Numbered from the stretch's first letter, positions 17,513 through 34,291 are shown. The stretch is DNA of 48,872 nucleotides from Paenibacillus sp. 598K (GCF_003851045.1 NZ_BFBX01000005.1:1-48872); one strand, 5' to 3'. Numbers and translations: made by a program. Notes: generated from the sequence alone by a model not told the origin.

Positions 17513-17949
17513 ACTTACCCCCTGGAGTTTGCAATAATTTTCAATGTATGCGTTTTAGAAGATATGTGGTTTATGACCCTAACCGTACACTATTTTCCTT
17601 GAAATGAGAAGCTTCGCCGATATGCCTTTTTTTACTTTGCCTCCTCCAGCCCCATTCTGTCAAGTCAAGCAAGCCCAGTCGCGCCAGCGATGAAGGCGCT
17701 ATCTTGAGCTGTTTTCTCCAACCATGCCAGATCCTTATACCCCCATTCCCTGGTCAAAAAAAACATAGTCCGCATGACAACCCGCCGCTGGCCGATGTCT
17801 TGTGTCCGCGAAATCGTAAGGTAATCTAACATATCCGACCATGCCAGAATCCCCGTCTTTAGCGACCTGAGCCAAAATGACATGTTTACCGTCCGCTCCC
17901 CCTTTTATAGACTGTGGGTAATCACCAAGAGGGGAAAGGAGAGGGTCCT

Positions 17950-18927
17950 ATGACAGAAGGCAGCAGCACTCCTACGTTCGACGCGTCCGTTGCGCCGACA
18001 GGACAGCAGACAGGGCGCAGGAGAGGCAGGACGCTCCATAAGATCGTCCGCAACTGGCGTTTGTACGTATTTATGGCGCCGGCATTGCTGACGGTGTTAA
18101 TTTTCAACTATTTGCCGATGTACGGGATTCAGATTGCCTTCAAAAACTACATTCCCGCCTTCGGGATGGCAGACAGTCCATGGGTCGGTCTGGATCATTT
18201 CATTCGCTTCTTCAACTCGTATTACTTTTGGGACTTGCTCTGGAACACGCTCAGCATCAGCTTGTACGGTCTTGCAGTAGGCTTCCCGCTGCCGATCCTG
18301 CTGGCGCTGGCCTTCAATGAAGTGCGCGTCGGCTTCTTCAAGAAGACGGTGCAGACCGTCACGTATGCGCCGCACTTCATCTCAACGGTCGTCATGGCGG
18401 GGATGATCATCACGTTCCTCAGCCCGTCCTCGGGGATGCTCGTCAATCTGCTGGAGGCGCTCGGCATCTCGCCGCCGAACTTCCTCACCGATCCGCGCTG
18501 GTTCAAGACGATGTACGTCTTCTCGGATGTGTGGCAGGCGACGGGCTGGGGCACGATCATCTATCTGGCAGCGCTCTCGGCGGTCGATCCCGGCTTGCAC
18601 GAGGCTGCGATCCTGGACGGAGCGTCGCGGATGCAACGGATCCGGCATATTAACATCCCGGTCATCATCCCGACGATCACGATCCTGATGATCCTCAACG
18701 TCGGCAGTCTGCTCAGCGTCGGTTACGAGAAGATCCTGCTGCTGCAAAATCCGCTCAACATGTCGTCCTCGGACGTCATCGCCACCTTCGTCTACCGGAT
18801 CGGTCTGCTGGAGGCGCAGTACAGCTACTCTACAGCGGTCGGTCTGTTCAACTCGGTCGTCAATGCGATCCTGCTGATCGTCATCAATCAGGTCGTACGG
18901 CGGACGAGCGAGAACAGTCTTTGGTAG
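17950..18927 (+). CDS. Sugar ABC transporter permease (LplB-like, MalF-type)
   Basis: Six TM segments and the EAA-like motif DGASRMQRIRHINIPVIIPT. ATG 17950 with a GGAGAGGG RBS. The track start at 17914 lacks an RBS. Confidence 0.85.
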   Translation: MTEGSSTPTFDASVAPTGQQTGRRRGRTLHKIVRNWRLYVFMAPALLTVLIFNYLPMYGIQIAFKNYIPAFGMADSPWVGLDHFIRFFNSYYFWDLLWNTLSISLYGLAVGFPLPILLALAFNEVRVGFFKKTVQTVTYAPHFISTVVMAGMIITFLSPSSGMLVNLLEALGISPPNFLTDPRWFKTMYVFSDVWQATGWGTIIYLAALSAVDPGLHEAAILDGASRMQRIRHINIPVIIPTITILMILNVGSLLSVGYEKILLLQNPLNMSSSDVIATFVYRIGLLEAQYSYSTAVGLFNSVVNAILLIVINQVVRRTSENSLW

Positions 18928-18952
18928 GACAACGAAGAAAGGAGTGAAGCCC

Positions 18953-19858
18953 ATGGTATCGGCAATCAAGGAAACAAAGAGCGACAAGGTGTTCCTGGCG
19001 TGCGTCTATGTCGTGCTCACGCTGGCGCTCGCCGTCGTCGCCTATCCGCTCATCTATATTATCAGCGCCTCGATCAGCAATCCGAACGTCGTCGCCTCCG
19101 GCGAGATGTGGCTGCTGCCCAAGGAGATCACGCTCGAAGGGTACAAGCGGGTGTTCGACGATCCGGCGATCTGGAACGGCTACCTCAATACGATCATCTA
19201 CACAGCGGTCGGCACCGCGGTTAACCTCGCCGTCACCTTGCCTGCTGCCTACGCGATGAGTCGGCGCGACATGGTCGGCCGCAATCTGTTTATGATGCTG
19301 TTTATGGTGACGATGTTCTTCAGCGGCGGCCTCGTGCCGACCTATCTGATCGTCAAGAGCCTTGGGCTCGTCAACAGCATGTGGGCGCTCATCCTGCCGG
19401 GGGCGACGTCGGTGTGGAATCTGATCGTCTGCCGCACCTTCTTCCAGTCGACGATGTCCAAGGACCTGCAGGAAGCGGCAGAGATCGACGGCTGCAGCGA
19501 CTTCCGGCTATTCTTCCAGATCGTGCTGCCGCTCTCGACGGCGCTGATCGCGGTCATGGCGCTGTTTTTCGGGGTCGGCCACTGGAACAACTACTTCTCC
19601 GCGATGATCTATCTGAGCGATCAGGCCAAGTATCCGCTGCAATTGGTGCTTCGTCAGATCCTCGTGCTGCAGCAGATGTCGGCGCAGTCGGGAGCGATCA
19701 ATGCAGAGACGGCGACCTCGCTCAACAACAAAGCCGAGGTGGCGGCGCTCGTCAAATACGCCGTGATCATCGTCTCGACGCTGCCGGTTATCGCGCTCTA
19801 TCCGTTCCTGCAGCGCTATTTTGTCCAAGGTGTCATGATCGGTTCCGTCAAGGGCTGA
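18953..19858 (+). CDS. Sugar ABC transporter permease (LplC-like, MalG-type)
   Basis: TM topology and the motif EAAEIDGCSDFRLFFQIVLPLS. ATG 18953 lies 8 nt after GAAAGGAG. Confidence 0.85.
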   Translation: MVSAIKETKSDKVFLACVYVVLTLALAVVAYPLIYIISASISNPNVVASGEMWLLPKEITLEGYKRVFDDPAIWNGYLNTIIYTAVGTAVNLAVTLPAAYAMSRRDMVGRNLFMMLFMVTMFFSGGLVPTYLIVKSLGLVNSMWALILPGATSVWNLIVCRTFFQSTMSKDLQEAAEIDGCSDFRLFFQIVLPLSTALIAVMALFFGVGHWNNYFSAMIYLSDQAKYPLQLVLRQILVLQQMSAQSGAINAETATSLNNKAEVAALVKYAVIIVSTLPVIALYPFLQRYFVQGVMIGSVKG

Positions 19859-19927
19859 TCTTGCCATAGCATGCTCGCGATGTCGCGGGACCTACAAATG
19901 GGTTATGATGAAAGGGGAGGATTGTCT

Positions 19928-21544
19928 ATGAAGAAAAGGCACAAGAAGGGGACCATCGCGGTGTCAGCCTTGATGGCGATGGCGATGCTGACAGCGGCTT
20001 GTTCATCTGACAAAGGGGGGAGCGAGACGCCTGCTGCGGGAGGCGGCGATGGAGCTGCCAGCGTCAGCCGCGAGGGCTTCCCGATCGTCGAGGAGCAGAT
20101 CACGCTCAAGATGATGGCGCCCAGCGCCGAGATGGCCAACTGGAGCACGATGCCGACGGTGCAGGCGATGGAGGAGCTGTCCAATATCAAGGTGGAGTTC
20201 GAGACGGCGCCGATCGATAGCTTCCCGACCAAAAAAAATCTGACCTTCGCCGGCGGCGAGCTGCCGGACATGCTATACGCCGCCGATCTGACGCCAGCCG
20301 AGCAGGTCAACTACGGCAGCCAAGGACTGCTGCTGCCGCTCGAGGACTTGATCGACAACTATGCGCCGAACCTGAAGGCGGTGCTCGACGCCAATCCGGA
20401 TGTCCGCAAGTCGATCACGACGACGGATGGCCATATCTACGCGCTGCCTTTCATCGATACGACCGCCGTATGGTATCGCGGCCCGATGTGGTACAACGGC
20501 AAGTTCCTGGAGGCGCTGGGCGTCAGCGAGCCCAAGACGACCGAAGAGCTGTACACATACCTGAAGCGGGTCAAGGAAGAGGATCCGAACGGCAACGGCG
20601 AGGCGGACGAGATCCCGCTCACCTCAGTCAAGCTCGACGATCTGCGCATGTTCTTCCTCGGCTTCTGGGGCATCTACAATGAGGTGTACTATGCCGACAA
20701 GGAAGGCGTCGTCCATTATACGCCGCAGGAGGAGGGCTATCGGGGCTATCTGACCTTCCTGAACAAGCTGTGGCAGGAGGAGCTGCTCGATCACGAGACG
20801 TTCTCGCAGACCGACGACATGAAGAAGGCGAAGGGCGCCAAAAACCAGATCGCGCTCTTCAGCGACTACCATCCGTACTTCACGCTCGGCGGCGAGCCGC
20901 GGACGACCGATCCGCTCATGACGCCCGTTAGCAGCGAGATCGCCGGTACGCCGGTCTACGGCAAGCACCCGGGCATCTCGTCCAACGGCAACTTCGCGAT
21001 CACGGCGACCAACAAGCATCCGGAAGCGACGATGCGCTGGATCGACTACCAATACAGCTATGAAGGCGCGACGCTCTGGACGCAAGGGCCGGAGGGGCTG
21101 ATGTGGGAGTACGAGGACGAGGCCAACAAGGTGAAGCGCTACAAGGAGGTGCCGGGCGGCGGCGACCGTGAGGAGTACCGCGCCACCTTGACGCCGAACT
21201 ACGGCATCGTCACCCCGGGCGTCAACATCCCTGAGCTGACGAACGGTCTGCGCTCCGAGCTCGACGACTGGATCCGGGAGGAGAACGAGGCGAAGCTGGT
21301 GCCGATCGCCAAGTCCCCGTTCCCGCGCGTCTATCTCGACAACGAGCGGCAGACCGAGGTGTCGGCGCTCATGTCCGATCTCGATACGTATGTGAAGCAG
21401 ATGGAAGCCCGCTTCGTCACCGGCGCGGAGCCGCTGGCCAACTGGGATGCGTACGTCGCTCAATTGAAAAAGATGGGCAGCGACCGAATTGTCGAGATTT
21501 ACCAAGAGGCTTACGACCAGTGGGATAGCGAGAACGCCAGCTAA
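19928..21544 (+). CDS. Extracellular solute-binding lipoprotein (LplA-like) for a sugar or oligosaccharide ABC transporter
   Basis: Lipoprotein signal MKKRHKKGTIAVSALMAMAMLTAAC with lipobox LTAAC. About 540 aa, SBP size class. AAGGGGAGG RBS. Confidence 0.85.
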   Translation: MKKRHKKGTIAVSALMAMAMLTAACSSDKGGSETPAAGGGDGAASVSREGFPIVEEQITLKMMAPSAEMANWSTMPTVQAMEELSNIKVEFETAPIDSFPTKKNLTFAGGELPDMLYAADLTPAEQVNYGSQGLLLPLEDLIDNYAPNLKAVLDANPDVRKSITTTDGHIYALPFIDTTAVWYRGPMWYNGKFLEALGVSEPKTTEELYTYLKRVKEEDPNGNGEADEIPLTSVKLDDLRMFFLGFWGIYNEVYYADKEGVVHYTPQEEGYRGYLTFLNKLWQEELLDHETFSQTDDMKKAKGAKNQIALFSDYHPYFTLGGEPRTTDPLMTPVSSEIAGTPVYGKHPGISSNGNFAITATNKHPEATMRWIDYQYSYEGATLWTQGPEGLMWEYEDEANKVKRYKEVPGGGDREEYRATLTPNYGIVTPGVNIPELTNGLRSELDDWIREENEAKLVPIAKSPFPRVYLDNERQTEVSALMSDLDTYVKQMEARFVTGAEPLANWDAYVAQLKKMGSDRIVEIYQEAYDQWDSENAS

Positions 21545-21557
21545 ATAGCAAGCAGCA

Positions 21558-21606
21558 CAGGCGGCTGTTTCCCTGCCGGGATCGGCGGGGAACAGCCGCT
21601 TTTTTC
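21558..21606 (+). terminator. Rho-independent terminator or attenuator after the SBP gene
   Basis: GGCGGCTGTTTCCC...GGGGAACAGCCGC followed by TTTTTT. Confidence 0.65.
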
Positions 21607-21676
21607 TCGCAGCAATCACTACCGGTTGGTACAACTGCGGGTTCGAATCATGCCATCTTTAAAAGGAGGAATTGTT

Positions 21677-23047
21677 GTGGGAGAAGCTCAGGAGCCCGTC
21701 GTCCACGAGGGCGTGCATAATTACAGCAGCGAGCAGGATTGGGTCGAGCCGCAGGAGCCGCTGCTGCGGGATCGGCTGGAATGGTTTAAGGACCAGAAGC
21801 TGGGCCTGATGATGCACTGGGGGCCTTACTCCCAGCTCGGCGTCGTCGAATCGTGGGCACTCAGCGACGGCGATGCCGACTGGGCGCGCGATTGCATCGA
21901 CTGGGGCGTCGAGGGCGAGGAGCTGAAGCGCGAATACTTCGATCTGAACCGCACGTTTAACCCGATCCGCTTTCAGCCGCAGCGTTGGGCGGAGCTGGCG
22001 GCCGAGGGCGGCTTCAAGTATCTGAACTTTACGACCAAGCATCATGACGGCTTCTGCATGTGGGATACCCATACGACCGACTACCGGATCACCGGCCCTG
22101 AGACGCCCTTCCACCGGCACAAGTATGCAGATATTTGCCGCGAGCTGTTCGACGCGTTCCGCGAGCAGGGGCTGGCGATCTCGGCGTACTTCTCCAAGGC
22201 TGACTGGCATACCCCATCCTACTGGGCGCCGGGCATGGAGCGCGGCAGCCAGATGTGGCGCGGCCCGTCGTACGATCCGCAGCGCTACCCGTGGCTGTGG
22301 GAGCAGTTCGTCCAGTTCACCCACAGGCAGATCATGGAGCTGATGACCCGCTACGGCCGCATCGATATGCTATGGCTCGACGCCGGATGGGTCAACGCGG
22401 CGCAAGGTCAGGATATCCGGCTCGGCGAGGTGGTCGAGCAGGCGCGCCGCGTGCAGCCGTGGCTGCTGACAGCGGACCGGACGGTCGGCGGTCCTTACGA
22501 GAATCTGATCACCCCCGAGCAGACGTTGCCGGAGCGGCCGCTGTATGTGCCGTGGGAGAGCTGCATTACGATGGGCACCTCGTTCTCCTTCAATTATGAC
22601 GATCGCTACAAGTCGGTCCGCCAGCTCGTGCATCTGCTCGTCGAGATCGTCGCCAAGGGCGGCAATCTGGCGCTGAATGTCGGCCCGCAGCCGGACGGTC
22701 GTCTGCCAGCCCCGGCGATCGAGCGGATGAAAGGACTAGGCAAATGGCTTAGCGTCAATGGCGAAGCGATCTACGGGACGCGGGTGTGGGAGCCATATGC
22801 AGCAGGCGCCGTCCGCTTCACCCGCAAGGGCGAGGTCGGCTATGCGATCGTCTTGTGTCAGGAGGACGAGCGGCTGCAGGAGGAGCTGGTCCTGCCGCTT
22901 GCGACAGAGCCGACAGCCGTCGATCTCATCGGCAGCGCGGACGATCTCGAGGTGCGGCGCTGCGAGGACGGCTATGCAGTGCGTCTGCCCGAGGCGGTGC
23001 GAGTCGGCGAGATGCCGGAGGCGCTGGCCTTCCGTATCCGGAGATAG
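21677..23047 (+). CDS. GH29 alpha-L-fucosidase, cytoplasmic (no signal peptide)
   Basis: GLMMHWGPYSQLGV, FTTKHHDGFCMWDT and WHTPSYWAPG are GH29 hallmarks. GTG 21677 lies 7 nt after AAAGGAGG. An alternative ATG is at 21650. Confidence 0.8.
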   Translation: MGEAQEPVVHEGVHNYSSEQDWVEPQEPLLRDRLEWFKDQKLGLMMHWGPYSQLGVVESWALSDGDADWARDCIDWGVEGEELKREYFDLNRTFNPIRFQPQRWAELAAEGGFKYLNFTTKHHDGFCMWDTHTTDYRITGPETPFHRHKYADICRELFDAFREQGLAISAYFSKADWHTPSYWAPGMERGSQMWRGPSYDPQRYPWLWEQFVQFTHRQIMELMTRYGRIDMLWLDAGWVNAAQGQDIRLGEVVEQARRVQPWLLTADRTVGGPYENLITPEQTLPERPLYVPWESCITMGTSFSFNYDDRYKSVRQLVHLLVEIVAKGGNLALNVGPQPDGRLPAPAIERMKGLGKWLSVNGEAIYGTRVWEPYAAGAVRFTRKGEVGYAIVLCQEDERLQEELVLPLATEPTAVDLIGSADDLEVRRCEDGYAVRLPEAVRVGEMPEALAFRIRR

Positions 23048-23085
23048 CCGGGGAGTATGAGGACAAAGGATGGGAGGAAGAGACG

Positions 23086-24201
23086 ATGATGTGGAGCGCA
23101 GTACCGGAGCCTAGCATTGACTACGCGCCGAAAAGCTATCGCTGCCTGCGAGCCGAGGGGCCGCTCGAGCTGGACGGCCGACTGGACAAGCCGTTCTGGG
23201 CGCATGCGCCCTGGACCGAGGATTTCGTCGATATCGAGGGCGACCTGCGGCCGCTGCCGTCGAAGCGGACGCGAGTGAAGATGCTGTGGGACGACGAGTA
23301 TTTTTACATTGGCGCTGAGCTGGAGGAGGATGAGATCTGGGCGACGTTGACGGAGCGGGATTCGGTCATCTTCTATGACAATGACTTCGAGATCTTCATC
23401 GATCCCGACGGCGATACGCATCAGTATTACGAGTTCGAGATCAACGCGCTGAATACCGTCTGGGATCTGCTGCTCGTGACGCCGTATCGGGACGGCGGTC
23501 CGCCGGTCAACGGCTGGGATATCCAGGGGTTGCGGACGGCCGTCCATATCGACGGGGAGCTGAACAACCCTGCAGCGGCCAATCGGCGCTGGAGCGTCGA
23601 GGTGGCGATGCCGTGGCGCGCGCTCCAGGAATGCGCCCCGGACAAGCGGCCGCCGCTTGCCGGAGAGTTCTGGCGGGTTAACTTCTCGCGTGTGCAGTGG
23701 CGGGTCGAGGTGCAGGACGGTCAATATCGCAAGCAGGTGAATCCGGCTACCGGACGGCCGTATCCCGAGGATAACTGGGTCTGGTCGCCGCAGGGCGTCG
23801 TCAACATGCACTATCCCGAGCTGTGGGGCTATGTCGTCTTCAGCGACTCGGCAATGGCGACTGCTCCGACGGCTGCGGGAACGTCCGGTGATGAGAGAGC
23901 GGAAGACGCGGACACGACGACGCCCGTCAGCGGACCGCTACAGGCGGATGTCTTCGTATTGCCGCCGGACGAGCGGATCAAGTGGCTGCTGCGTCGGCTC
24001 TACTACAGACAGCGCAACTACTATGCCGAGCATGGACGATTCTCCGACGAGCTGGCGCTGTTGGCCCGTGGCGAGCGGGAGCTGGAGGAGCTGGCGCCTC
24101 GGATCGAGATCGGCAGCGGCCTGTTCCGTATCTCGGCGACATCGGCAGACGGCACGGCTGTCTACTGGATTCGCGAGGACGGCAAATTGTGGAGGGAGTG
24201 A
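23086..24201 (+). CDS. Carbohydrate-binding (CBM9-like/DOMON-like) domain protein, cytoplasmic
   Basis: YYEFEINALNTVWDLLL...WSVEVAMPW resembles CBM9-like sugar-binding modules. Assigned from memory with low-moderate certainty. GGGAGGAAGAG RBS. Confidence 0.5.
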   Translation: MMWSAVPEPSIDYAPKSYRCLRAEGPLELDGRLDKPFWAHAPWTEDFVDIEGDLRPLPSKRTRVKMLWDDEYFYIGAELEEDEIWATLTERDSVIFYDNDFEIFIDPDGDTHQYYEFEINALNTVWDLLLVTPYRDGGPPVNGWDIQGLRTAVHIDGELNNPAAANRRWSVEVAMPWRALQECAPDKRPPLAGEFWRVNFSRVQWRVEVQDGQYRKQVNPATGRPYPEDNWVWSPQGVVNMHYPELWGYVVFSDSAMATAPTAAGTSGDERAEDADTTTPVSGPLQADVFVLPPDERIKWLLRRLYYRQRNYYAEHGRFSDELALLARGERELEELAPRIEIGSGLFRISATSADGTAVYWIREDGKLWRE

Positions 24202-24206
24202 GACGG

Positions 24207-27326: not shown

Positions 27327-27338
27327 TCTAACGAATGG

Positions 27339-27407
27339 ACAGACGGCTGGCTCCTCGTAACGCAGATCGAGACGTTATTTCAGGAGCTCACTATTACATG
27401 CCAGCCG
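27339..27407 (+). promoter_or_regulatory. Long intergenic stem-loop: 12-bp perfect outer stem (CAGACGGCTGGC/GCCAGCCGTCTG) with a nested 6-bp stem and no U-tract
   Basis: Inverted repeats read directly between the transglutaminase-like gene and the GH18 gene. Possibly an RNA processing or regulatory element. Confidence 0.4.
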
Positions 27408-27432
27408 TCTGAAGAGAGGAGCGCGAAGCGCA

Positions 27433-28470
27433 ATGAAACCCGACTACAAGACGATCGGCTACGTCGGCGACAAAGACCTGCCCGTAATGACGCAAGCGGA
27501 TCTGCTGAAGCTGACGCATATTAATATTGCATTCGGCCATGTCCGAGATGACGAGATTGTCACCGATCATTTGGCCCATCTTGGCCGCCTCAGCCATCTT
27601 AGAGCATGGCACCCGGAGGTGACGATCCTGCTGTCCGTCGGCGGATGGAGCGCCGGGGGATTCTCCGAGGCGGCATCGACGGCAGAGGGCCGACAAGCGA
27701 TGGCGCGCTCGGCCGTCCGCGCGATCGAAGAGCATGGGCTCGACGGCATTGATTTGGACTGGGAGTACCCTTGCTACGCCGCTGCAGGCATCGCTGCCAG
27801 CCCTGACGACCGCGCCAATTTTACGTTGCTGCTGCGCGATATCCGGGAGGCGCTGGATGCCAAGGGATCAGCGGATGGACGACACTATCTGCTGACGATC
27901 GCAGCAGGCGCAGACCAGTATTATATCGATGGCACGGAGATGGGCGAGGCGCAGCGGTACCTCGATTATGTGCAGCTCATGACCTACGACATGCGTGGCG
28001 GCTTCCAGACGCTCACTGGCCATCATACCAATCTGTATGCATCGACCGGCGACCTGTTCCGCATCTCGACTGACGCTTCGGTTCGACTGTTCGAGCAGGC
28101 GGGCGTCCCTCGAGAGAAGATCGTCATCGGCGCAGCCTTTTACTCGCGGATGTGGCGGGAGGTGCCGGGCGTCCAGGCGGGGCTGCATCAGATGGCTGGC
28201 ACGAGCGGCGGCTACGGACCGCACTATGACGAGCTGGCAACCGACTATATCGACCGCAACGGCTACGTCAGACACTGGGATGAAGAGGCCAAGTCGCCTT
28301 ACCTGTTCAACGGCAGCACCTTCATCTCGTACGATGACGAAAAGTCGATCGCAGAGAAGTGCGATTACATCCGACGCGAGGGGCTGCTTGGCCTCATGTT
28401 CTGGGAGTATGGCTGCGACCGCTCGGGGGTGCTGCTGGAGGCGATTCGCAAGGGACTGCATACTTCGTAA
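27433..28470 (+). CDS. GH18 glycoside hydrolase (chitinase/endo-beta-N-acetylglucosaminidase-like), cytoplasmic
   Basis: Catalytic motif DGIDLDWEYP (DxxDxDxE) and LSVGGW. No signal peptide. Confidence 0.85.
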   Translation: MKPDYKTIGYVGDKDLPVMTQADLLKLTHINIAFGHVRDDEIVTDHLAHLGRLSHLRAWHPEVTILLSVGGWSAGGFSEAASTAEGRQAMARSAVRAIEEHGLDGIDLDWEYPCYAAAGIAASPDDRANFTLLLRDIREALDAKGSADGRHYLLTIAAGADQYYIDGTEMGEAQRYLDYVQLMTYDMRGGFQTLTGHHTNLYASTGDLFRISTDASVRLFEQAGVPREKIVIGAAFYSRMWREVPGVQAGLHQMAGTSGGYGPHYDELATDYIDRNGYVRHWDEEAKSPYLFNGSTFISYDDEKSIAEKCDYIRREGLLGLMFWEYGCDRSGVLLEAIRKGLHTS

Positions 28471-28559
28471 AAGGGAAGAAAGCTCCATAGGCCGCAGCCA
28501 GCGATCGTGTTAGAATAAATCTAACAACTAATGCGCCAACTGCGGAGGAGAACAGAGCA

Positions 28560-30116
28560 TTGAGCCCATCAGAAGTGTGGATACCTGTCGTGTTTTATTG
28601 GCTGCCAATGCTTATTTTCTTCTATATGGGATTGGATGTGTTGCTGCGCAATCCAAAAAAGCTGGAGCATATTTTGGTCAGCTTGACGATTTTGTGCTAT
28701 TTCCTGTTATTCCTTGAAGAATACATCCGCTATATGCTGCCGATCGAGTACAGTCCGGCGCTTGCGGCGCTATGGTTTGCCAATGTCGGTATCGCCATCC
28801 CGGGGCTAGGCTTTCATCTGCTTGCCAAGCTGATCGGGCTGGACAAGCGGCTGCCGCGTCCATGGTATCCTTACATTTTTCATGTGCTGCTGCTGGCGAT
28901 CCCGGCAAGCTTCCTTAGTCGCGGCGAGCTGATCTCGGCGCAGGAGTTCGTCGCGGTCGGCGTCTGGAAGTGGCCAGTGGCCAACGCGGCCTATTACGGC
29001 ACGCTTACGGCAAGCCTGTCGCTGAGCCTGATCTCGATCGTGCTGCTACGCATCGCCCGCAAGCGCAACAATCGATATGCTCTCAAGGAGCATAACGGGA
29101 TTTTCACTCTACTGGAGTATGGCAGCATCATTACGTTTAGTTGGGTCGTGCTCTTCGGTTATTTCCAGCTGGGCGAGTTCGTGCCGCCGTATCCATACCT
29201 GTATGCGGGATTGATCTGGTGTTTCGTGTTGCGTCTGGCGATGCAGCGATACGAGTTTCTTAATTATAATGGTCACCGTTATGAGAAGCTGTTCCAGATG
29301 AATCCGCAGCCGATCCTGCTGGTCGCCTCGACAGGTAAGATCAAGGAAGCCAATCCGAGCGCCCGGCAGTTGTTCTACCAAGTGGATCTAGTCTCCGCGA
29401 CACTTCACACGCTGGGCGGCGAGGCGTTGCATTACCAACTGCTGCAGCGGAAGGACATCCACGAGCAGGAGATGACGCTGCGCAATGGCGACCGCTCCAT
29501 CGAGGCGCTCGTCAGCGGAGATTATGTAACCGTTAACGATGAACCGCATGCGATCCTGATCGTCCATGATATTGGCGCGCGCAATGAATCGCTGCGACGA
29601 ATCGCGCACATGGCGTATCACGATCCGCTGACAGACCTGCCGAACCGCAGACAGTTCTACGACAAGCTGAATCATGCTATCGAGACGGCTGACGATCGCG
29701 AGCTAGCTGTCATGGTCATCGACCTCGACGACTTCAAGCGGGTCAACGACCGTTACGGTCATGAAGCGGGAGATCTCGTGCTGCGGCGCGTGGCGGCTAT
29801 CCTACGGGAGACGGTGGGCGAGGCGGGCACGGCGGCGCGCATCGGCGGCGATGAGTTCGTGCTCTTCTTCGTCCGGGCTCAGGGATGTCCTGAGGCCGAG
29901 GCTGTGATCGAACGGATCGAAGGCGCTGCGACATCTACGGTGCTGGAGTATGGCGGCGAGCGCCTGCAGATCCGCATGAGCATCGGCATGAGCCGCTACC
30001 CTGCCGACGGCGCGACCCCAGACGAGCTGCTCAAGCATGCCGACCATACGATGTATACCTTCAAGCAAGGCCGCAAGCGCGACGCTGCCGTGGCGGAGGA
30101 GCAGGAGCGGGCTTGA
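28560..30116 (+). CDS. Membrane sensor diguanylate cyclase (multi-TM N-terminus, PAS-like domain, GGDEF). TTG start.
   Basis: RQFYDKLNHA...VMVIDLDDFKRVNDRYGHEAGDLVLRRVA...ARIGGDEFVLFF is a GGDEF active site. Five to seven N-terminal TM helices. GGAGGAG RBS before the TTG. Confidence 0.8.
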   Translation: MSPSEVWIPVVFYWLPMLIFFYMGLDVLLRNPKKLEHILVSLTILCYFLLFLEEYIRYMLPIEYSPALAALWFANVGIAIPGLGFHLLAKLIGLDKRLPRPWYPYIFHVLLLAIPASFLSRGELISAQEFVAVGVWKWPVANAAYYGTLTASLSLSLISIVLLRIARKRNNRYALKEHNGIFTLLEYGSIITFSWVVLFGYFQLGEFVPPYPYLYAGLIWCFVLRLAMQRYEFLNYNGHRYEKLFQMNPQPILLVASTGKIKEANPSARQLFYQVDLVSATLHTLGGEALHYQLLQRKDIHEQEMTLRNGDRSIEALVSGDYVTVNDEPHAILIVHDIGARNESLRRIAHMAYHDPLTDLPNRRQFYDKLNHAIETADDRELAVMVIDLDDFKRVNDRYGHEAGDLVLRRVAAILRETVGEAGTAARIGGDEFVLFFVRAQGCPEAEAVIERIEGAATSTVLEYGGERLQIRMSIGMSRYPADGATPDELLKHADHTMYTFKQGRKRDAAVAEEQERA

Positions 30117-30123
30117 GGCGGGA

Positions 30124-30588
30124 GTGTCATCGCGACAAATCGCACAAAATGTCCCGCATGCGGCGCCGTAGCCGGGAGATGTGCGAAATATCGCACAAAA
30201 TGTGCCACATACGGCGCCGTGGCCGGGAGATGTGCGAAATATCGCACAAAATGTCCCGCATGCGGCGTCTTGGCCGGGAGATGTGCGAAATATCGCACAA
30301 AATGCCCCGCATGCGGCGTCTTGGCCGGGAGATGTGCGAAATATCGCATAAAATGTCTCGCGTGCGGCGCCGTAGCCGGGAGATGTGCGAAATATCGCAC
30401 AAAATGTGCCACATGCGGCGCCGTGGCCGGGAGATGTGCGAAATATCGCACAAAATGTCCCGCATGCGGCGCTTTGGCGGAGAGATGTGCGAAATATCGC
30501 ATAAAATGTCTCGCGTGCGGCGTCTTGGCCGGGAGATGCGCGAAATATCGCACAAAATGCCCCGCATGCCGTTCATGCGATAGGCCAT
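30124..30588. repeat. Tandem array of about 9.5 copies of a 51-bp unit (GTGCGAAATATCGCACAAAATGTCCCGCATGCGGCGCCGTAGCCGGGAGAT). Each unit has the hairpin GTGCGA-aata-TCGCAC plus a second variable GC-rich hairpin.
   Basis: Exact 51-bp periodicity read directly from the sequence. Variation is confined to about 10 positions in the second hairpin. The all-frame ORFs 30113..30583, 30219..30590, 30127..30588 and 29996..30598 are periodicity artefacts (51 = 17 codons). Confidence 0.9.
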
Positions 30589-30593
30589 AGCGC

Positions 30594-30652
30594 GACAAAG
30601 GAGCTGCCCTCAGTCATCCAACGATGACTAAGTGAGCAGCTCCTTTTCCATT
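30594..30652 (+). terminator. Rho-independent terminator (11-bp stem AAAGGAGCTGC/GCAGCTCCTTT with a structured loop, then TTTTCCATTTT)
   Basis: It lies immediately after the 51-bp array. This implies the array is transcribed as the 3' UTR of the GGDEF gene. Confidence 0.5.
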
Positions 30653-30727
30653 TTAGCAACGGATATATATAGCAATGTGTCAGAGGTTGCGCACCAGTCG
30701 CCCACCAGCCGTCACCGGGCCTTCTTG

Positions 30728-30933
30728 CCGCGCTATACCGCAGCTTGCCGCCACCGCGCCTTGTTCCGTGCTATACCGCAGCTTCCCGCCACCGGGCCCG
30801 CTAACCTACACCGCCGCTTGCCGCCACCGCGCCTCGTTTCCGCGCTACATCGCAGCTTCCTGCCACCGTGCCGATTCCGCGCGACACCACCGCGCACCCT
30901 TCCGCGCTACGCCGCCGCAGCTCCTCACCTCGC
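30728..30933. repeat. Five to six degenerate GC-rich ~36-bp direct repeats (CCGCGCTATACCGCAGCTTGCCGCCACCGCGCC-like)
   Basis: Read directly. Located between the terminator and the 3' end of the GH92 gene. Confidence 0.6.
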
Positions 30934-33126
30934 TTAACGCTTCGTCAGCGAGAAAGGCAGCTCCTCGGCGCTGTAGCTCCGGTAAGTCGGAGCCAGACCG
31001 AGGCGGAAGTCAAGCGAGCGTCCAGCCATCAGGTCCTCATGCGTTACATACAGCTTGGTATAAGTCTCGCCGTCCTGCGCCACATGGCTGACGAAGTTCG
31101 ACTGCGAGTTGTTGTTGTCGGTCGTGATGCGCAGCTGATTGCCATTTGCCAGCTCGATCGTGACGCTGTCCAGCAACGGGATGCCCAGCACATACTGATC
31201 GGTGCCCGGGCAGACCGGATAGAAGCCCATCGCGCTAAACACGTACCAGCCTGCCATACTGCCGTTGTCCTCGTCGCCGGGGAAGCCGTCGAAGCCGCTG
31301 TTGAACAGATGTGTCATGATCTGCTTGATGACGACCTGCGACGACGCCGGCTGCCCGACATAGTTGAACAGATACGGGAGGTGGAAGCTTGGCTGATTGG
31401 AGATCGCCACCTGGCCAAAGTCGACCGCCGCCATCTCGCTCATCTCGTGGATCTCGAAGCCGTAGCCTCGCACATCGAAGTCCGGCGCCTTGTTGCACAG
31501 CTCGGTTAGCTTCTCGAAGAAACGCTCATCCGAGCCGTACGCCTCGATCAAGCCCTGGAAGTCATGGTAGACGGCAAAGCCGTTCTGCCAGGCGCTGCCC
31601 TCCGCATAGTCGAGTCCCCAAGCGGTGTCGTCGAAGTTCGGGCGGAACTCACCGTCCTTATCCTTGGCCCGCATGAAGCCGAGCTCGGCGTCGAAGATGT
31701 TGCGGTAATTGCGCGAGCTCTGCCGGTACTGCTCGGCCAGCTCCGGTTTGTCCTGCTGCTCCGCCACCTGACTGATGCAGAAGTCGCTGTACGCGTAGTC
31801 CAGTGTATGGTTGACGCTCTCGTGATGATCGAGCGGCACATAGCCGTGCGCGAGATAGTCTGTGGTGCCTTGACGACCGTAGCCTTGGACCTCGCTCTGC
31901 GTAGTTGCGGCCTTGATCATCGCCTCCAGCAGCTCCGGCATCAGATGCGGTGCGATCCCTTTGACGGCAGCATCGGCGATGACGGCATCGATCAGTGTCC
32001 CCGGCATGATGCCACGCTCGTCGGGAGAGAGCCATTTCGGCAGGAAGCCCGTCTCGCGGTAAGAGTTGAGGAAGCCCTCCAGCATCTCTGCATACTCGTC
32101 CGGCGCGATCAGCGAGTAGAGCGGGTAGACGGTCTTGTACGTGTCCCAGAAGCCGTTGCTCGTATAGAGGATGCCCGGCTTGACGGCCTTGGCCGTCGTG
32201 TCGTAGTGGATCGGCGAGTTGTGCTCGTCCAGCTCATAGAACTTCTGCGGGAACAGGAACATCCGATACAGACACGTGTAAAAGGTCCGCAGTTGCTCCT
32301 CATCGCGGTGCGTCACCTGGATCTTGTTCAGGTAATGATTCCAACGCTCGGCCGCTTGCACCTTCAGCTCCTCGAAGGTTGGCGTCAACTCGCGACTATA
32401 GTTCAGCCGGGCTTGCTCGAAGCTGATATAGGAGGTTGCCAGCTTGGCTTGGAGCGTCCCTCGCTCGCAGCCAACGAAGCGGATGACCAGATGCTGATTG
32501 TCCCCCTCCAGCTCAGTGGCTGTCGTGAAGTTGCCTTTGTCGTCATAGACGCCGGATGCGGCGGCATCGATCTCGCGGTCGAAGGTGAGTACGGCGTAGA
32601 TGCCGAATTTGTCGTCGCGGCAGCCGGCGAAGTTGTTGAAGAAGCCGCTAAGTGTGCGATTCTCAACGTCCAGCGTCAGCTTGCTTTTCTGCTTGCTATT
32701 GATGACCAGACCTGCCTGCTGAGCGGAATTGTAGCGGATCTGCAGCGCCGCGCCGTAGCAGGTTGGCGTCAGCTCGGAGACGATGTTGTACCGCTGCTGT
32801 TTGACCCGCACGTAGTGCGGCTTGAACACCGCTTCCTCCGGCCGATAGGAGCTCTGGCAGGTGAATACGATGCCTCGCACCTTGGTATCGGCGATTGGGG
32901 TCATCAGGAAGGTGGCGAAGTCGCCCATCCACGGACTCGGCTGATGCGTCAGACGGAAGCCCTGGAATATCCGGTCATTCGGGTTGAAAAACCAGTTGCC
33001 CTCGTTTTCGGTCTGAACGGCAAAGTGGTTCATGCCAAACGGCACAGCTGTGTAAGGCAACGTATTGCCGTTGGAGTACGTGTACTTGTTGTTGGTTCCT
33101 TGACGGGTATCGATGTAATGCAGCAT
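30934..33126 (-). CDS. GH92 alpha-1,2-mannosidase-like glycoside hydrolase, cytoplasmic (730 aa)
   Basis: N-terminus MLHYIDTRQGTNNKYTYSNGNTLPYTAVPFGMNHFAVQT and an overall length of about 740 aa are typical of GH92. Start at ATG 33126, 8 nt after AAAGGAG. The track start at 33165 has no RBS. Confidence 0.85.
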   Translation of the reverse strand: MLHYIDTRQGTNNKYTYSNGNTLPYTAVPFGMNHFAVQTENEGNWFFNPNDRIFQGFRLTHQPSPWMGDFATFLMTPIADTKVRGIVFTCQSSYRPEEAVFKPHYVRVKQQRYNIVSELTPTCYGAALQIRYNSAQQAGLVINSKQKSKLTLDVENRTLSGFFNNFAGCRDDKFGIYAVLTFDREIDAAASGVYDDKGNFTTATELEGDNQHLVIRFVGCERGTLQAKLATSYISFEQARLNYSRELTPTFEELKVQAAERWNHYLNKIQVTHRDEEQLRTFYTCLYRMFLFPQKFYELDEHNSPIHYDTTAKAVKPGILYTSNGFWDTYKTVYPLYSLIAPDEYAEMLEGFLNSYRETGFLPKWLSPDERGIMPGTLIDAVIADAAVKGIAPHLMPELLEAMIKAATTQSEVQGYGRQGTTDYLAHGYVPLDHHESVNHTLDYAYSDFCISQVAEQQDKPELAEQYRQSSRNYRNIFDAELGFMRAKDKDGEFRPNFDDTAWGLDYAEGSAWQNGFAVYHDFQGLIEAYGSDERFFEKLTELCNKAPDFDVRGYGFEIHEMSEMAAVDFGQVAISNQPSFHLPYLFNYVGQPASSQVVIKQIMTHLFNSGFDGFPGDEDNGSMAGWYVFSAMGFYPVCPGTDQYVLGIPLLDSVTIELANGNQLRITTDNNNSQSNFVSHVAQDGETYTKLYVTHEDLMAGRSLDFRLGLAPTYRSYSAEELPFSLTKR

Positions 33127-33166
33127 GGGATGCGCTCCTTTTGGATAGTTTTCAATACAAAGCAAC

Positions 33167-34291
33167 TTATAATGTACGGACCGAACCGCGTTCGACGAGC
33201 TTCACGGGGACGACGGCGGCGGGCTGGGTCAGATGCGGGTTGCGAATCTGTCGCAGCAGCGTCTCTGCGGCCAGGTAGCCGATCCGGGCGAAGTCCTGCG
33301 CCATCGTCGTCAGCCCAGGTGCGATATACTCGGCCAACTGGATGTCGTCGAAGCCGATGACCGACAGATCATCCGGTACGCTCAGACCGATCGACTGGGC
33401 GGCGCGAATGCACTCGATCGCAGTCAGGTCATTGGTCGCGACGATGGCCGTGATCCCCTGCTCCTGCAGCAGCCGGATCGCGCGGACGAAGAGTAGTGCT
33501 TCCTCGCCCTCGGCCACCCGGTCCGCCTCATTGAGTCGGAACAGCTCGATCGCCTCAAGGCTTGGCACCGCATGCTCGTGCATCGCCTTCAGATAACCCC
33601 AGTAACGCTCGCGCTCCGTATAAAAGCTGGCGGGCTCGTTGGTGGACAAGAAGGCGATCCGGCGATGGCCGCGCGCGATCAGATGGGCAGTCGCCTCGTA
33701 TGCGCCGCCCAGATTATCGGATACGACGGCAGGGAAGGGGAGACCTTCCAGCTGCTTGTCCAGGAGGACCACCGGGTATCGCCGCAGCGCATACTGATAG
33801 AGCAGATCGAGATCGGCGTTGCTTACCGGATAGAAGATCAGACCCTGATGCTTGCCGAGCAGCGCGTGCTCCAGCAGTCGGCGCTGGCTCGCAGGAGAGC
33901 TCGCCTGGATATGGAGCGTGTGCCCGGACGCGTCGAGACGTTCCTGGATGCCTTGTCCATAGTCGCCGAGACCAGGATTATGGCTGAATGGCAGCATCAG
34001 CAGCACCTCGTTGCCGATTCCTCCGGAGCCTGCGCCAGCGCTTGGACCCGTCCCGTCAGATGCAGCTCGCAGCTCACGCTCGCTGACGAAGCTGCCTTTG
34101 CCGCGGATGCGGTAGATCAGTCCTTCGTTTTCCAGCTCGCTTAGCGCGCGCTTCGACGTGATCCGGCTGACGCCGAATTGCTGCGACAGCTCGGCCTCCG
34201 TCGGCACCTGATCGCCGCTTTTCAGCTCGCCGGAGGCGATCTGCTTTCTTAGCGCTTGGACGATTTGTTGATACAGCGGGAGCTCTGTCAT
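33167..34291 (-). CDS. GntR-HTH plus LacI/PBP1-type sugar-binding domain regulator (AraR-like architecture)
   Basis: N-terminal YQQIVQALRKQIASGELKSGDQVPTEAELSQQFGVSRITSKRALSELENEGLIYRIRGKGSFV is a GntR wHTH. The C-terminal periplasmic-binding-fold domain reads ...AIVATNDLTAIECIRAAQSIGLSVPDDLSVIGFDD. Confidence 0.8.
   Translation of the reverse strand: MTELPLYQQIVQALRKQIASGELKSGDQVPTEAELSQQFGVSRITSKRALSELENEGLIYRIRGKGSFVSERELRAASDGTGPSAGAGSGGIGNEVLLMLPFSHNPGLGDYGQGIQERLDASGHTLHIQASSPASQRRLLEHALLGKHQGLIFYPVSNADLDLLYQYALRRYPVVLLDKQLEGLPFPAVVSDNLGGAYEATAHLIARGHRRIAFLSTNEPASFYTERERYWGYLKAMHEHAVPSLEAIELFRLNEADRVAEGEEALLFVRAIRLLQEQGITAIVATNDLTAIECIRAAQSIGLSVPDDLSVIGFDDIQLAEYIAPGLTTMAQDFARIGYLAAETLLRQIRNPHLTQPAAVVPVKLVERGSVRTL

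What the first reader, a model, noticed from the sequence alone, without database searches (positions are those of the whole stretch)
17950..34291. Entirely cytoplasmic glycan-catabolic island that mirrors eukaryotic free-N-glycan processing and includes a PNGase-fold (transglutaminase-like) giant protein
An LplB/LplC/LplA-type importer, whose SBP is the only secreted component, is followed by enzymes that all lack signal peptides. These are a GH29 alpha-fucosidase, a CBM9-like binding protein, a 1039-aa protein with a Cys-His-Asp transglutaminase core (the fold used by peptide:N-glycanase), a GH18 with the DGIDLDWEYP motif (ENGase/chitinase type), a GH92 alpha-mannosidase and an AraR-like repressor. 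A membrane AraC sensor sits upstream. The set PNGase-like, ENGase-like, alpha-mannosidase and fucosidase is the enzyme complement needed to dismantle an imported fucosylated high-mannose glycopeptide in the cytoplasm. A bacterial cytoplasmic PNGase-like enzyme would be unusual.
Basis: partly seen in the sequence, partly recalled or inferred. Interest (0 to 1): 0.55.

Follow-up and report, generated by a model that had tools for sequence, protein, structure and literature searches.

The report
Cytoplasmic N-glycan-core operon with orphan transglutaminase-like enzyme
A Paenibacillus sugar-import operon pairs a fucosidase and a chitobiose-splitting enzyme with a large, uncharacterised transglutaminase-like protein that probably cuts the sugar off the asparagine of imported glycopeptides; if so, this would be a new, widespread kind of bacterial glycan-releasing enzyme.

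Summary
The genes are real and mostly as described, with four corrections.

1. The conserved unit is sensor, two permeases, SBP, GH29, CBM9-like protein, 1039-aa transglutaminase-like protein (TGL) and GH18. GH92 and its GntR/PBP regulator are lineage-specific neighbours, separated by a PAS-GGDEF gene and repeat arrays.
2. The GH18 is not ENGase-type. It is 72% identical to the P. barengoltzii orthologue from the same operon, which matches PDB 6INX, 'N-acetylglucosaminidase', at 340/343 residues.
3. TGL keeps Cys169 and His202. The canonical Asp position is Gly in all 79 relatives checked, and the PNGase zinc site is absent. It is not a Png1/NGLY1 family member.
4. Its fold resembles PNGase no more than it resembles other transglutaminases.

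TGL lies next to a translationally coupled CBM9-like gene in 47/54 Bacillota loci. It sits with GH18, GH29, GH38, GH130 and an M17 aminopeptidase in Bacillota. In Bacteroidota it carries a signal peptide and sits with GH92, GH29, GH20 and CutC.

Best reading: cytoplasmic breakdown of imported (Fuc)GlcNAc2-Asn glycopeptides, with TGL as the amidase. The pathway is well supported. The amidase step is inferred. No characterised member of the TGL family was found.

The parts
15245..17512 (-). Membrane-bound one-component regulator with a Cache-like sensor, a GGDEF_2-like middle region and an AraC HTH. It is the probable activator of the divergent operon.
   Evidence: Pfam HTH_18 1.5e-18, dCache_1 1.4e-4. 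A homologue lies beside the importer in 38 of 57 Bacillota loci.
17914..18927 (+). ABC permease 1 (LplB-like). The likely start is the ATG at 17950.
   Evidence: BPD_transp_1 9e-14. Syntenic in 41/57 Bacillota loci.
18944..19858 (+). ABC permease 2 (LplC-like).
   Evidence: BPD_transp_1 4.5e-11. Syntenic in 44/57 Bacillota loci.
19871..21544 (+). Extracellular lipoprotein solute-binding protein (LplA-like, about 540 aa). The likely start is 19928 (MKKRHKKG...LTAAC).
   Evidence: SBP_bac_1 3.3e-15 plus DUF3502. The nearest solved relative is 5g5y at 1e-47, and that match does not reveal the ligand.
21626..23047 (+). Cytoplasmic GH29 alpha-L-fucosidase.
   Evidence: Alpha_L_fucos 3.8e-83. Nearest PDB entry 6gn6 at 8e-59; AlfC at 5e-32. 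A GH29 is present in 36/57 Bacillota TGL loci, often as two paralogues.
23086..24201 (+). CBM9-like protein: a roughly 250-aa CBM9/DOMON beta-sandwich plus a roughly 80-aa alpha/beta tail. It is translationally coupled to the next gene and is the probable glycan-binding partner of TGL.
24207..27326 (+). TGL: a 1039-aa cytoplasmic transglutaminase-like multidomain protein, proposed to be the glycopeptide amidase.
   Evidence: Transglut_core 8e-22. More than 7300 homologue clusters and at least 583 matching stretches in the species-representative genome collection. No NCBIfam family. No characterised member was found in the literature searches.
24579..24986 (+). Active transglutaminase-like core of TGL (residues 125-260): GRC169GEES (24705-24725), NH202AWVEAW (24807-24830), IG217ACEPE (24852-24872).
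   Evidence: Cys169 and His202 are invariant across Bacillota and Bacteroidota. Gly occupies the canonical Asp position in 76/76 loci scored. The GRCGE and (D/G)ACE motifs are shared with mouse and yeast PNGase.
25029..25271 (+). Transthyretin/carboxypeptidase-regulatory-like beta-sandwich of TGL (residues 275-355).
25983..26306 (+). Second, degenerate transglutaminase-like repeat of TGL (residues about 593-700) with no nucleophile Cys.
   Evidence: hhalign of core against this region: probability 97.6%, E=4e-12. Pfam Transglut_core 1.3e-3, below the family cut-off.
25656..25994 (+). Low-complexity insert 1 of TGL (residues 484-596, rich in Ser, Gly, Pro, Gln). It is lineage-specific.
   Evidence: Absent from most homologues, which are about 870 aa long.
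26328..26558 (+). Low-complexity acidic insert 2 of TGL (residues 708-784). It is lineage-specific.
   Evidence: Alignment A1; coordinates.
27433..28470 (+). Cytoplasmic GH18 exo-N-acetylglucosaminidase (chitobiase-type).
   Evidence: Glyco_hydro_18 1.2e-71. 72% identical to the P. barengoltzii gene at the same operon position. That gene is 340/343 identical to PDB 6INX, 'N-acetylglucosaminidase'. A GH18 lies immediately downstream of TGL in 38/57 Bacillota loci.
28560..30116 (+). Membrane PAS-GGDEF diguanylate cyclase. It is a neighbour, not part of the conserved module.
   Evidence: GGDEF 3.2e-41, PAS_8. It occupies this position in the closest relative, L083, and not in the S150 or P. barengoltzii clusters.
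30132..30934 (.). Intergenic repeat arrays: 51-bp tandem repeats (30132 to about 30640, best copies to 30590) and 35-39-bp repeats (30728-30934), with a hairpin terminator-like palindrome at about 30600-30645.
30934..33165 (-). Cytoplasmic GH92 alpha-mannosidase of the alpha-1,2 type. It is thematically related but a lineage-specific neighbour. The likely start is the ATG at 33126.
   Evidence: GH92 6.5e-150. PDB 6dwo/7fe1, 'Alpha-1,2-mannosidase', 4.5e-260; 5swi 1.8e-205. Not beside TGL in any of the 57 other Bacillota loci.
33167..34291 (-). Repressor with GntR HTH plus LacI-type sugar-binding domain (AraR architecture), paired with GH92.
   Evidence: GntR 4e-20, Peripla_BP_3 1.9e-37.

Best explanation
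**What it is.** The conserved unit at 15245-28470 is a cytoplasmic pathway for the reducing-end core of N-linked glycopeptides. The likely substrates are (Fuc)GlcNAc2-Asn or short glycopeptides left after extracellular proteolysis and trimming.

**Proposed steps**
1. A membrane Cache/AraC sensor switches on the operon.
2. The lipoprotein SBP and two permeases import the substrate, presumably with a shared ATPase encoded elsewhere.
3. GH29 removes core fucose.
4. TGL detaches the glycan from asparagine. It would hydrolyse the GlcNAc-beta-N-Asn amide, as PNGase and glycosylasparaginase do. It would use a Cys169-His202 dyad on a transglutaminase/papain-like core. The translationally coupled CBM9-like protein would serve as its glycan-recognition subunit.
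5. The GH18 exo-N-acetylglucosaminidase splits the freed chitobiose into GlcNAc.

**Neighbour genes.** In this lineage a separately regulated cytoplasmic GH92 alpha-1,2-mannosidase sits next door and may handle mannose-bearing forms.

**Shown versus inferred.** Shown here: gene identities, the cytoplasmic location, the tight cross-phylum synteny, and orthology of the GH18 to PDB 6INX, which its depositors named an N-acetylglucosaminidase. Inferred: the identity of the imported substrate, and that TGL is the amidase. Overall, the pathway has the logic of the lysosomal reducing-end route (FUCA1, then AGA, then GH18 chitobiase) and of the L. casei alf-2 operon. An unrelated enzyme fold would take the place of the Ntn glycosylasparaginase.
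For: **Synteny**
- CBM9-like lies immediately upstream of TGL in 47/54 Bacillota loci with enough flank.
- GH18 lies immediately downstream in 38/57 loci and within 10 kb in 44/57.
- GH29 is present in 36/57 and the importer in about 41/57.
- The minimal trio GH18/CBM9-like/TGL occurs alone in Lederbergia and Sporosarcina.

**N-glycan and peptide context in other lineages**
- Holtiella L061 carries an M17 aminopeptidase, GH130 and GH38. L048 and L055 carry GH38, and L048 also GH130.
- L076 reads GH92, GH29, GH20, TGL.
- Two M16 peptidases lie upstream in L056 and L058.
- CutC is adjacent in 8/21 Bacteroidota loci. cutC also sits in the genomic region of the Xanthomonas nix N-glycan cluster (PMC6718126).

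**Compartment logic**
- Bacteroidota TGLs have signal peptides and the Bacillota ones do not.

**Likely catalytic competence**
- The core is 56-77% identical across phyla, with invariant Cys169 and His202.
- The GRCGE and ACE motifs are shared specifically with PNGases; profile E-values are 9e-4 to 2e-3.

**GH18**
- Its P. barengoltzii orthologue matches PDB 6INX, 'N-acetylglucosaminidase', at 340/343 residues.

**Coupling of CBM9-like and TGL**
- The gap between the two genes is 5-6 nt in the window and in L081, L083 and L084.

**Precedent**
- The L. casei alf-2 pathway runs permease, then GH29 AlfC, then glycosylasparaginase (PMC6960285).
Against: - No activity data exist for any TGL family member in what I could search.
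- The canonical catalytic Asp position is Gly in every relative checked.
- The PNGase zinc-binding 2xCxxC domain is absent. Only Cys142, Cys169 and Cys219 are invariant in the N-terminal half.
- By profile, the closest solved relative is a putative cysteine protease, 3isr (3e-7).
- The operon has no beta-mannosidase, so larger glycans cannot be finished by it alone.
- The SBP ligand is unknown.
- A conventional Ntn glycosylasparaginase could exist elsewhere in the genome.
Confidence: 0.45

Rival explanations
1. The pathway is the same (imported N-glycopeptide cores), but TGL is a glycopeptide-specific cysteine peptidase. It trims the peptide around the glycosylated Asn. The GlcNAc-Asn bond is then cut by an unlinked Ntn glycosylasparaginase, or not cut at all.
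Against: Dedicated aminopeptidases are already present in loci that also have TGL, so TGL would be redundant there. Without an amidase the GH18 chitobiase would have no free reducing-end chitobiose to act on, and no glycosylasparaginase gene lies in the window. The GRCGE and ACE motifs are shared with PNGases and not with 3isr.
Confidence: 0.2
2. The operon degrades chitin-derived or fucosylated lipo-chitooligosaccharides (Nod/Myc-factor-like) rather than N-glycans. GH18 would depolymerise the GlcNAc backbone, GH29 would remove the reducing-end fucose, and TGL would act as an N-acyl amidase or have another role.
For: The GH18 is in the chitinase clade and its orthologue was deposited as an N-acetylglucosaminidase. 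The SBP has a weak N-terminal match to chitobiose-binding NgcE (6e-8, far below the family cut-off). Paenibacillus species are soil and rhizosphere chitinolytic bacteria.
Against: Relatives in non-Paenibacillus Bacillota (L048, L055, L061) and in Bacteroidota, including gut-type genera (Alistipes, Prevotella, Rikenella), sit with GH92, GH38, GH130, GH20 and peptidases. These point to N-glycans and not to chitin. A fucosidase is not needed for chitin. No chitin-binding or chitin-deacetylase genes are present.
Confidence: 0.12
3. TGL is not a hydrolase in this pathway. It would be a scaffold or lectin-like protein, a transglutaminase or deamidase acting on proteins, or a regulator that merely travels with the glycosidase genes.
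For: The canonical Asp is missing. The second transglutaminase-like repeat is clearly inactive. The protein is large and multidomain, with a thioredoxin-like tail suggested by PF00578 hits in two homologues.
Against: Cys169, His202 and the surrounding 50 residues are invariant between phyla at 56-77% identity, which is typical of an active site. The gene order is fixed inside catabolic operons. The protein is relocated to the periplasm together with the glycosidases in Bacteroidota.
Confidence: 0.1

Closest known systems
Lactobacillus casei alf-2 operon for Fuc-alpha-1,6-GlcNAc-Asn (Becerra et al. 2020, PMC6960285)
   Same: A cytoplasmic route for the N-glycan core: import of a fucosylated glyco-amino acid or glycopeptide, defucosylation by a GH29, then cleavage of the GlcNAc-Asn amide, with an associated peptidase.
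   Different: alf-2 uses an MFS-type permease (AlfH), an Ntn-hydrolase glycosylasparaginase (AsnA2), a sugar kinase and an aspartate decarboxylase. Here there is an ABC importer, no Ntn enzyme, a TGL plus CBM9-like pair in its place, and a GH18 chitobiase. The chitobiase implies a GlcNAc2 core rather than a single GlcNAc.
Mammalian lysosomal reducing-end N-glycan pathway (FUCA1 GH29, then AGA glycosylasparaginase, then CTBS GH18 di-N-acetylchitobiase). This is textbook knowledge and was not tested here.
   Same: The same three chemical steps. Two of the three use the same enzyme families (GH29 and GH18). Fucose removal would be needed before amide cleavage.
   Different: The amidase is an Ntn hydrolase in lysosomes and a transglutaminase-fold protein here. 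The compartment, the organism and the evolutionary origin all differ. Reducing-end specificity of the bacterial GH18 is not shown.
Eukaryotic/archaeal cytoplasmic PNGase (Png1/NGLY1; PDB 1x3w, 2f4m)
   Same: A transglutaminase-like core. The nucleophile motif GRCGE is identical, and the H-x-W-x-E and x-A/S-C-E motifs are shared. Location is cytoplasmic. The proposed reaction is the same.
Streptococcus pneumoniae / Enterococcus faecalis intracellular high-mannose N-glycan processing (GH92 of PDB 5swi and 6dwo). The organism and pathway assignment for these entries is from my own knowledge; the PDB names say only 'Sugar hydrolase' and 'Alpha-1,2-mannosidase'.
   Same: ABC import of N-glycan fragments followed by cytoplasmic exo-mannosidases. 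The window's GH92 is very close to these enzymes (4.5e-260 and 1.8e-205).
   Different: Those systems import glycans released by secreted ENGases and contain no TGL, CBM9-like protein or GH29/GH18 core module. Here the GH92 is only a lineage-specific neighbour.
Bacterial secreted PNGases (PNGase F; PNGase H+, PMC4231336)
   Same: Bacterial enzymes that release N-glycans by hydrolysing the GlcNAc-Asn amide.
   Different: Their folds are unrelated: PNGase F is built of two subdomains with essential acidic residues (PMC9102325). They are secreted or periplasmic and use no Cys-His chemistry.

Membership tests
Cytoplasmic PNGase (Png1/NGLY1) family | Transglutaminase-like (papain-like) core fold | tested here: met
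Cytoplasmic PNGase (Png1/NGLY1) family | Intact Cys-His-Asp catalytic triad (yeast C191/H218/D235) | tested here: not met
   Cys169 and His202 are present and invariant. The Asp position is Gly217 in the window and Gly in 76/76 related loci scored.
Cytoplasmic PNGase (Png1/NGLY1) family | Zinc-binding domain with two CxxC motifs N-terminal to or within the core (PMC9102325) | tested here: not met
   The only invariant cysteines in residues 1-480 are C142, C169 and C219, and no conserved CxxC pair exists.
Cytoplasmic PNGase (Png1/NGLY1) family | PNGases are the closest relatives by sequence or structure | tested here: inconclusive
Cytoplasmic PNGase (Png1/NGLY1) family | Peptide-N4-(GlcNAc)Asn amidase activity | not testable with these tools
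   Needs an enzyme assay. Only genomic context supports it.
GH18 endo-beta-N-acetylglucosaminidase (Endo H/F/S type) | Sequence membership of the ENGase subgroup of GH18 | tested here: not met
   NCBIfam Endo H scores 28 bits against a cut-off of 300. The Pfam EndoS TIM-barrel match is 4e-3, below its cut-off. The best matches are chitinases and 6INX, 'N-acetylglucosaminidase'.
GH18 (chitinase-like) family | DxxDxDxE catalytic motif and TIM-barrel domain | tested here: met
   DGIDLDWEYP is present. PF00704 1.2e-71 over the full length. 72% identity to the 6INX orthologue.
GH29 alpha-L-fucosidase | Alpha_L_fucos catalytic domain | tested here: met
   PF01120 3.8e-83. PDB 6gn6 8e-59. Linkage specificity was not tested.
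GH92 alpha-mannosidase | GH92 N-terminal and catalytic domains; closeness to characterised alpha-1,2 enzymes | tested here: met
   PF07971 6.5e-150, PF17678 1.2e-30. 6dwo/7fe1 4.5e-260.
CBM9 carbohydrate-binding module | CBM9/DOMON beta-sandwich fold | tested here: met
alf-2-type GlcNAc-Asn pathway (L. casei) | Ntn-hydrolase glycosylasparaginase in the cluster | tested here: not met
   None of the 31 window ORFs scanned with Pfam matched an asparaginase/Ntn family.
CUT1-type ABC sugar importer (LplABC-like) | Two permeases, an SBP and an ATPase | tested here: inconclusive
   The permeases and the SBP are present. No ATPase gene lies in the island. The only ABC ATPase in the window (5139-5897) is paired with an FtsX-type permease. 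A shared ATPase encoded elsewhere is usual in Bacillota; that is my own knowledge.

The most novel reading that the evidence does not exclude
TGL and its CBM9-like partner define a large, uncharacterised family of bacterial glycoamidases. They would have a transglutaminase fold and a Cys-His dyad without the canonical Asp, and would release the N-glycan core from asparagine or peptide. They would act in the cytoplasm of Bacillota and in the periplasm of Bacteroidota. This would be an additional bacterial solution to the PNGase/glycosylasparaginase reaction, only remotely related to eukaryotic PNGase.
Probability: 0.38. Interest if true: 0.8.

Novelty: new variant of a known kind. Interest (0 to 1): 0.62.

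Why it matters
**An open gap.** How bacteria dispose of the last piece of an N-glycoprotein, the (Fuc)GlcNAc2-Asn stub, is known in only a few cases. These are Ntn glycosylasparaginases and secreted PNGase F-type enzymes.

**Scale of the family.** This family gave matches in at least 583 stretches of a one-genome-per-species collection and in more than 7300 protein clusters. It is fixed inside operons that include a fucosidase and a chitobiase. No member has a known function.

**If it is the missing amidase**
- It would explain the purpose of a common operon in soil Paenibacillus and in Bacteroidota, including gut-type genera.
- It would add a new enzyme class for releasing N-glycans, which could be useful in glycoanalytics. 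It might tolerate core fucose or short peptides.
- It would give a bacterial counterpart for asking how the transglutaminase fold was recruited to glycoamidase chemistry in archaea and eukaryotes.

**It is readily testable.** The neighbouring GH18 of P. barengoltzii has already been expressed and crystallised.

Tried and rejected
- **Foldseek of the TGL model against PDB.** The hits were dominated by the small transthyretin-like sandwich. The transglutaminase-core matches were weak (about 1e-3) and PNGase was not in the top 50. This run was not decisive, because the model has low confidence around the nucleophile.
- **NCBIfam.** No family exists for TGL or for the CBM9-like protein.
- **Literature searches for a bacterial transglutaminase-fold PNGase or for this gene set.** Nothing relevant was found.
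- **Searches for 6INX and for the PNGase-chitobiose contact residues.** They found nothing. The link between 6INX and the 2020 J Agric Food Chem paper on a P. barengoltzii beta-N-acetylglucosaminidase, and the roles of Png1 W220, W231, R210 and E238, rest on my memory only.
- **Promoter and terminator scan.** The counts were no higher than in shuffled sequence, so the operon boundaries rest on spacing and synteny.
- **Pfam on isolated TGL segments.** Only a sub-threshold second Transglut_core hit appeared. The thioredoxin-like C-terminus is suggested only by precomputed PF00578 hits in two homologues.
- **CBM9-like protein as a hidden enzyme.** I considered this because of its 70% conservation. 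I dropped it because its fold matches only binding and DOMON modules. It is not excluded.
- **GH92 and the regulator as part of the operon.** Rejected on synteny.

Full report
**1. What is in the sequence**

- 15245-17512(-): a 755-aa membrane regulator with a Cache-like sensor and an AraC HTH.
- 17914-18927 and 18944-19858: two ABC permeases.
- 19871-21544: an SBP_bac_1/DUF3502 binding protein with a lipoprotein-type signal.
- 21626-23047: GH29 (3.8e-83).
- 23086-24201: a CBM9_1-like protein.
- 24207-27326: a 1039-aa protein with a Transglut_core domain (8e-22).
- 27433-28470: GH18 (1.2e-71).
- 30934-33165(-): GH92 (6.5e-150).
- 33167-34291(-): a GntR-HTH/PBP regulator.

One is a membrane PAS-GGDEF gene (28560-30116). 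The other is about 800 bp of tandem repeats.

The rest of the window carries no further glycan genes.

None of the enzymes has an N-terminal hydrophobic signal. Homologues start at the same residues. 'Cytoplasmic' is therefore well founded, although I had no dedicated signal-peptide predictor.

**2. What the conserved unit is**

A genome-collection scan with an alignment of the large protein (TGL) found at least 583 relatives. They occur in Paenibacillus, Saccharibacillus, Cohnella, Sporosarcina, Lederbergia, clostridial lineages and Bacteroidota. The Bacteroidota relatives are 41-47% identical over the full length.

I scored the 80 fetched loci with tblastn and phmmer. Of these, 57 are Bacillota.
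- A CBM9-like gene lies immediately upstream of TGL in 47 of the 54 Bacillota loci with enough flank.
- A GH18 lies immediately downstream in 38 loci and within 10 kb in 44.
- A GH29 is present in 36 loci, often as two paralogues.
- The importer is present in about 41 loci and the AraC sensor in 38.

Lederbergia and Sporosarcina carry only the trio GH18/CBM9-like/TGL.

GH92 and the GntR/PBP regulator are absent from all 57 other Bacillota loci. They recur only in the closest relative, a metagenome contig whose TGL is 80% identical. That contig also has the GGDEF gene. Paenibacillus sp. S150 and P. barengoltzii end the cluster at GH18.

The CBM9-like stop codon lies 5 nt before the TGL start, and the RBS sits in its last codons. 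The same 5-6-nt spacing occurs in L081, L083 and L084. The two genes are therefore translationally coupled.

**3. The GH18**

The DGxDxDWE motif is common to all GH18 enzymes and does not indicate an ENGase. The protein matches chitinase-clade structures. It also matches PDB 6INX, 'N-acetylglucosaminidase', over its full length (345 aa, 4.6e-172).

I reconstructed the 6INX sequence from that alignment. It is 340/343 identical to the gene directly downstream of TGL in P. barengoltzii, which has the same operon order. The window's GH18 is 72% identical to that gene.

The Endo H model scores 28 bits against a cut-off of 300.

This component is therefore an exo-acting, chitobiase-type enzyme whose orthologue has already been crystallised. 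It is probably the beta-N-acetylglucosaminidase of Liu et al. 2020, cited in PMC8908422. That link is from memory.

**4. The large protein**

Alignment across phyla shows an extremely conserved core, 56-77% identical. The motifs are GRC169GEES, NH202AWVEAW and IG217ACEPE.

The alignments to yeast and mouse PNGase place the following.
- Cys169 aligns with the PNGase nucleophile.
- His202 aligns with the catalytic His.
- Gly217 aligns with the catalytic Asp (yeast D235).

This Gly is present in all 76 loci that I could score by motif.

There is no conserved pair of CxxC motifs. The zinc site that PMC9102325 describes as part of Png1 is thus absent.

A profile of the core ranks 3isr, a putative cysteine protease, first at 3e-7. 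Mouse and yeast PNGase follow at 9e-4 and 1.7e-3, ahead of all true transglutaminases. The GRCGE and ACE motifs are shared with the PNGases only.

The other modules are as follows.
- Residues 275-355 form a transthyretin-like sandwich that is 41% identical to the B. fragilis fragment 3e8v.
- Residues about 593-700 are a second, inactive transglutaminase-like repeat (hhalign 97.6%).
- Two low-complexity inserts (residues 484-596 and 708-784) are specific to this lineage.

Conclusion: this is a transglutaminase-like enzyme with some PNGase-like motifs, but it is not a member of the PNGase family. Krishnan et al. 2018 (PMC6222260) found the nearest non-eukaryotic PNGases in archaea. I found no paper describing a bacterial one.

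**5. The CBM9-like protein**

**6. What substrate**

Context outside Paenibacillus is informative.
- Holtiella (L061): permeases, SBP, YitT, GH18, M17 leucyl aminopeptidase, GH29, CBM9-like, TGL, LacI, GH130, GH38.
- L048: GH130, GH18, GH38, GH29, CBM9-like, TGL. L055 has GH29, GH18, CBM9-like, TGL and GH38.
- Bacteroidota: the TGL has a signal peptide.
- L076 (an uncultured bacterium): the operon reads GH92, GH29, GH20, TGL.
- L056 and L058: two M16 peptidases lie upstream.
- Eight of 21 Bacteroidota loci have CutC adjacent. The same gene lies in the genomic region of the Xanthomonas nix N-glycan cluster (PMC6718126).

Fucosidase, hexosaminidase or chitobiase, alpha-mannosidases, a Man-beta-1,4-GlcNAc-type phosphorylase family and peptidases together describe the N-glycan core attached to peptide. 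They do not describe chitin.

The window's GH92 is nearest to PDB entries 6dwo/7fe1 and 5swi. Those are enterococcal and pneumococcal enzymes that act on imported high-mannose glycans. That last point is my own knowledge.

**7. Mechanism proposed**

1. Import of (Fuc)GlcNAc2-Asn or short glycopeptides.
2. GH29 removes core fucose.
3. TGL, with the CBM9-like protein, cleaves the GlcNAc-Asn amide using Cys169 and His202.
4. GH18 splits chitobiose.

This reproduces two known routes. One is the L. casei alf-2 pathway of permease, AlfC, then glycosylasparaginase AsnA2 (PMC6960285). The other is the lysosomal order of fucosidase, glycosylasparaginase, then GH18 chitobiase, which is textbook knowledge. 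A different fold would sit at the amidase step.

I put about 0.7 on the N-glycan-core pathway. I put about 0.4-0.45 on TGL being the amidase.

The rivals are as follows.
- TGL as a glycopeptide peptidase: 0.2.
- Catabolism of chitin or fucosylated lipo-chitooligosaccharides: 0.12.
- A non-catalytic or unrelated role: 0.1.

**8. Verdict**

The 'PNGase-fold', 'Cys-His-Asp' and 'ENGase-like' labels do not survive testing, and GH92 is a neighbour rather than a member. The central idea does gain real comparative support: an imported, fucosylated N-glycopeptide is dismantled in the cytoplasm with the help of an unusual transglutaminase-like enzyme. The idea concerns a very widespread protein family without a known function.

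Noticed in passing
window 30132-30640 and 30728-30934: The intergenic region between the GGDEF gene and GH92 holds an array of 51-bp tandem repeats (7 overlapping 204-nt registers, 85-93% identical, with the last at 64%). A second set of five 33-nt repeats follows, spaced 35-62 nt apart. A strong palindromic, terminator-like hairpin lies between them at about 30600-30645. They are not CRISPR-like, because there are no spacers. Their function is unknown.
   Followed up: partly
window 28560-30116: A membrane PAS-GGDEF diguanylate cyclase sits between GH18 and GH92, on the same strand as the operon and 90 nt after GH18. The closest relative (L083) has it in the same place, but the Paenibacillus sp. 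S150 and P. barengoltzii clusters do not. It could couple glycan sensing to c-di-GMP signalling, or the position could be coincidental.
   Followed up: partly
L063-L068, L070, L072, L076, L078 (for example L067:9165-9902): In Bacteroidota a CutC-family gene ('copper homeostasis') is directly adjacent to TGL in 8 of 21 loci. cutC is also reported in the genomic region of the Xanthomonas nix N-glycan cluster (PMC6718126). CutC may have an unrecognised role in N-glycan-core catabolism.
   Followed up: partly
window 25656-25994 and 26328-26558: The window's TGL carries two long low-complexity inserts. One is rich in Ser, Gly, Pro and Gln; the other is acidic. Most homologues lack them (about 870 aa against 1039 aa). 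This stretch also has the highest GC content in the window (0.675 for 24001-26000).
   Followed up: partly
window 10780-11535 (-): A second, small (251-aa) Transglut_core protein (3e-13) lies about 13 kb upstream, next to an RlaP-family (PF10127, 'RNA repair pathway DNA polymerase beta family') gene and a methyltransferase gene. It is apparently unrelated to the glycan operon.
   Followed up: no
L061:5726-7144; L044 at about 7311; L056:2253-8227; L058: Peptidase genes are embedded next to TGL in some lineages: M17 leucyl aminopeptidase in Bacillota and paired M16 peptidases in Bacteroidota. This is consistent with peptide-bearing substrates.
   Followed up: partly
Loci L002, L009, L012, L013, L015, L019, L020, L025, L029, L034: Many Paenibacillus operons carry two GH29 paralogues that are about 30% identical to each other. 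The window has only one. The two may serve alpha-1,6 and alpha-1,3 core fucose.
   Followed up: no
window 40108-42948 (-), 43120-44595 (+), 12724-14076 (+): Three long ORFs (946, 491 and 450 aa) have no Pfam match. The adjacent 1070-aa ORF (44436-47648) combines MFS-like, HEAT and cNMP-binding regions. I did not check whether these are real genes.
   Followed up: no
window 21584-21600: A weak terminator-like hairpin with a T-run lies just after the SBP gene and before GH29. It might attenuate read-through so that the SBP is made in excess. The scan as a whole was no richer in such sites than shuffled sequence.
   Followed up: no
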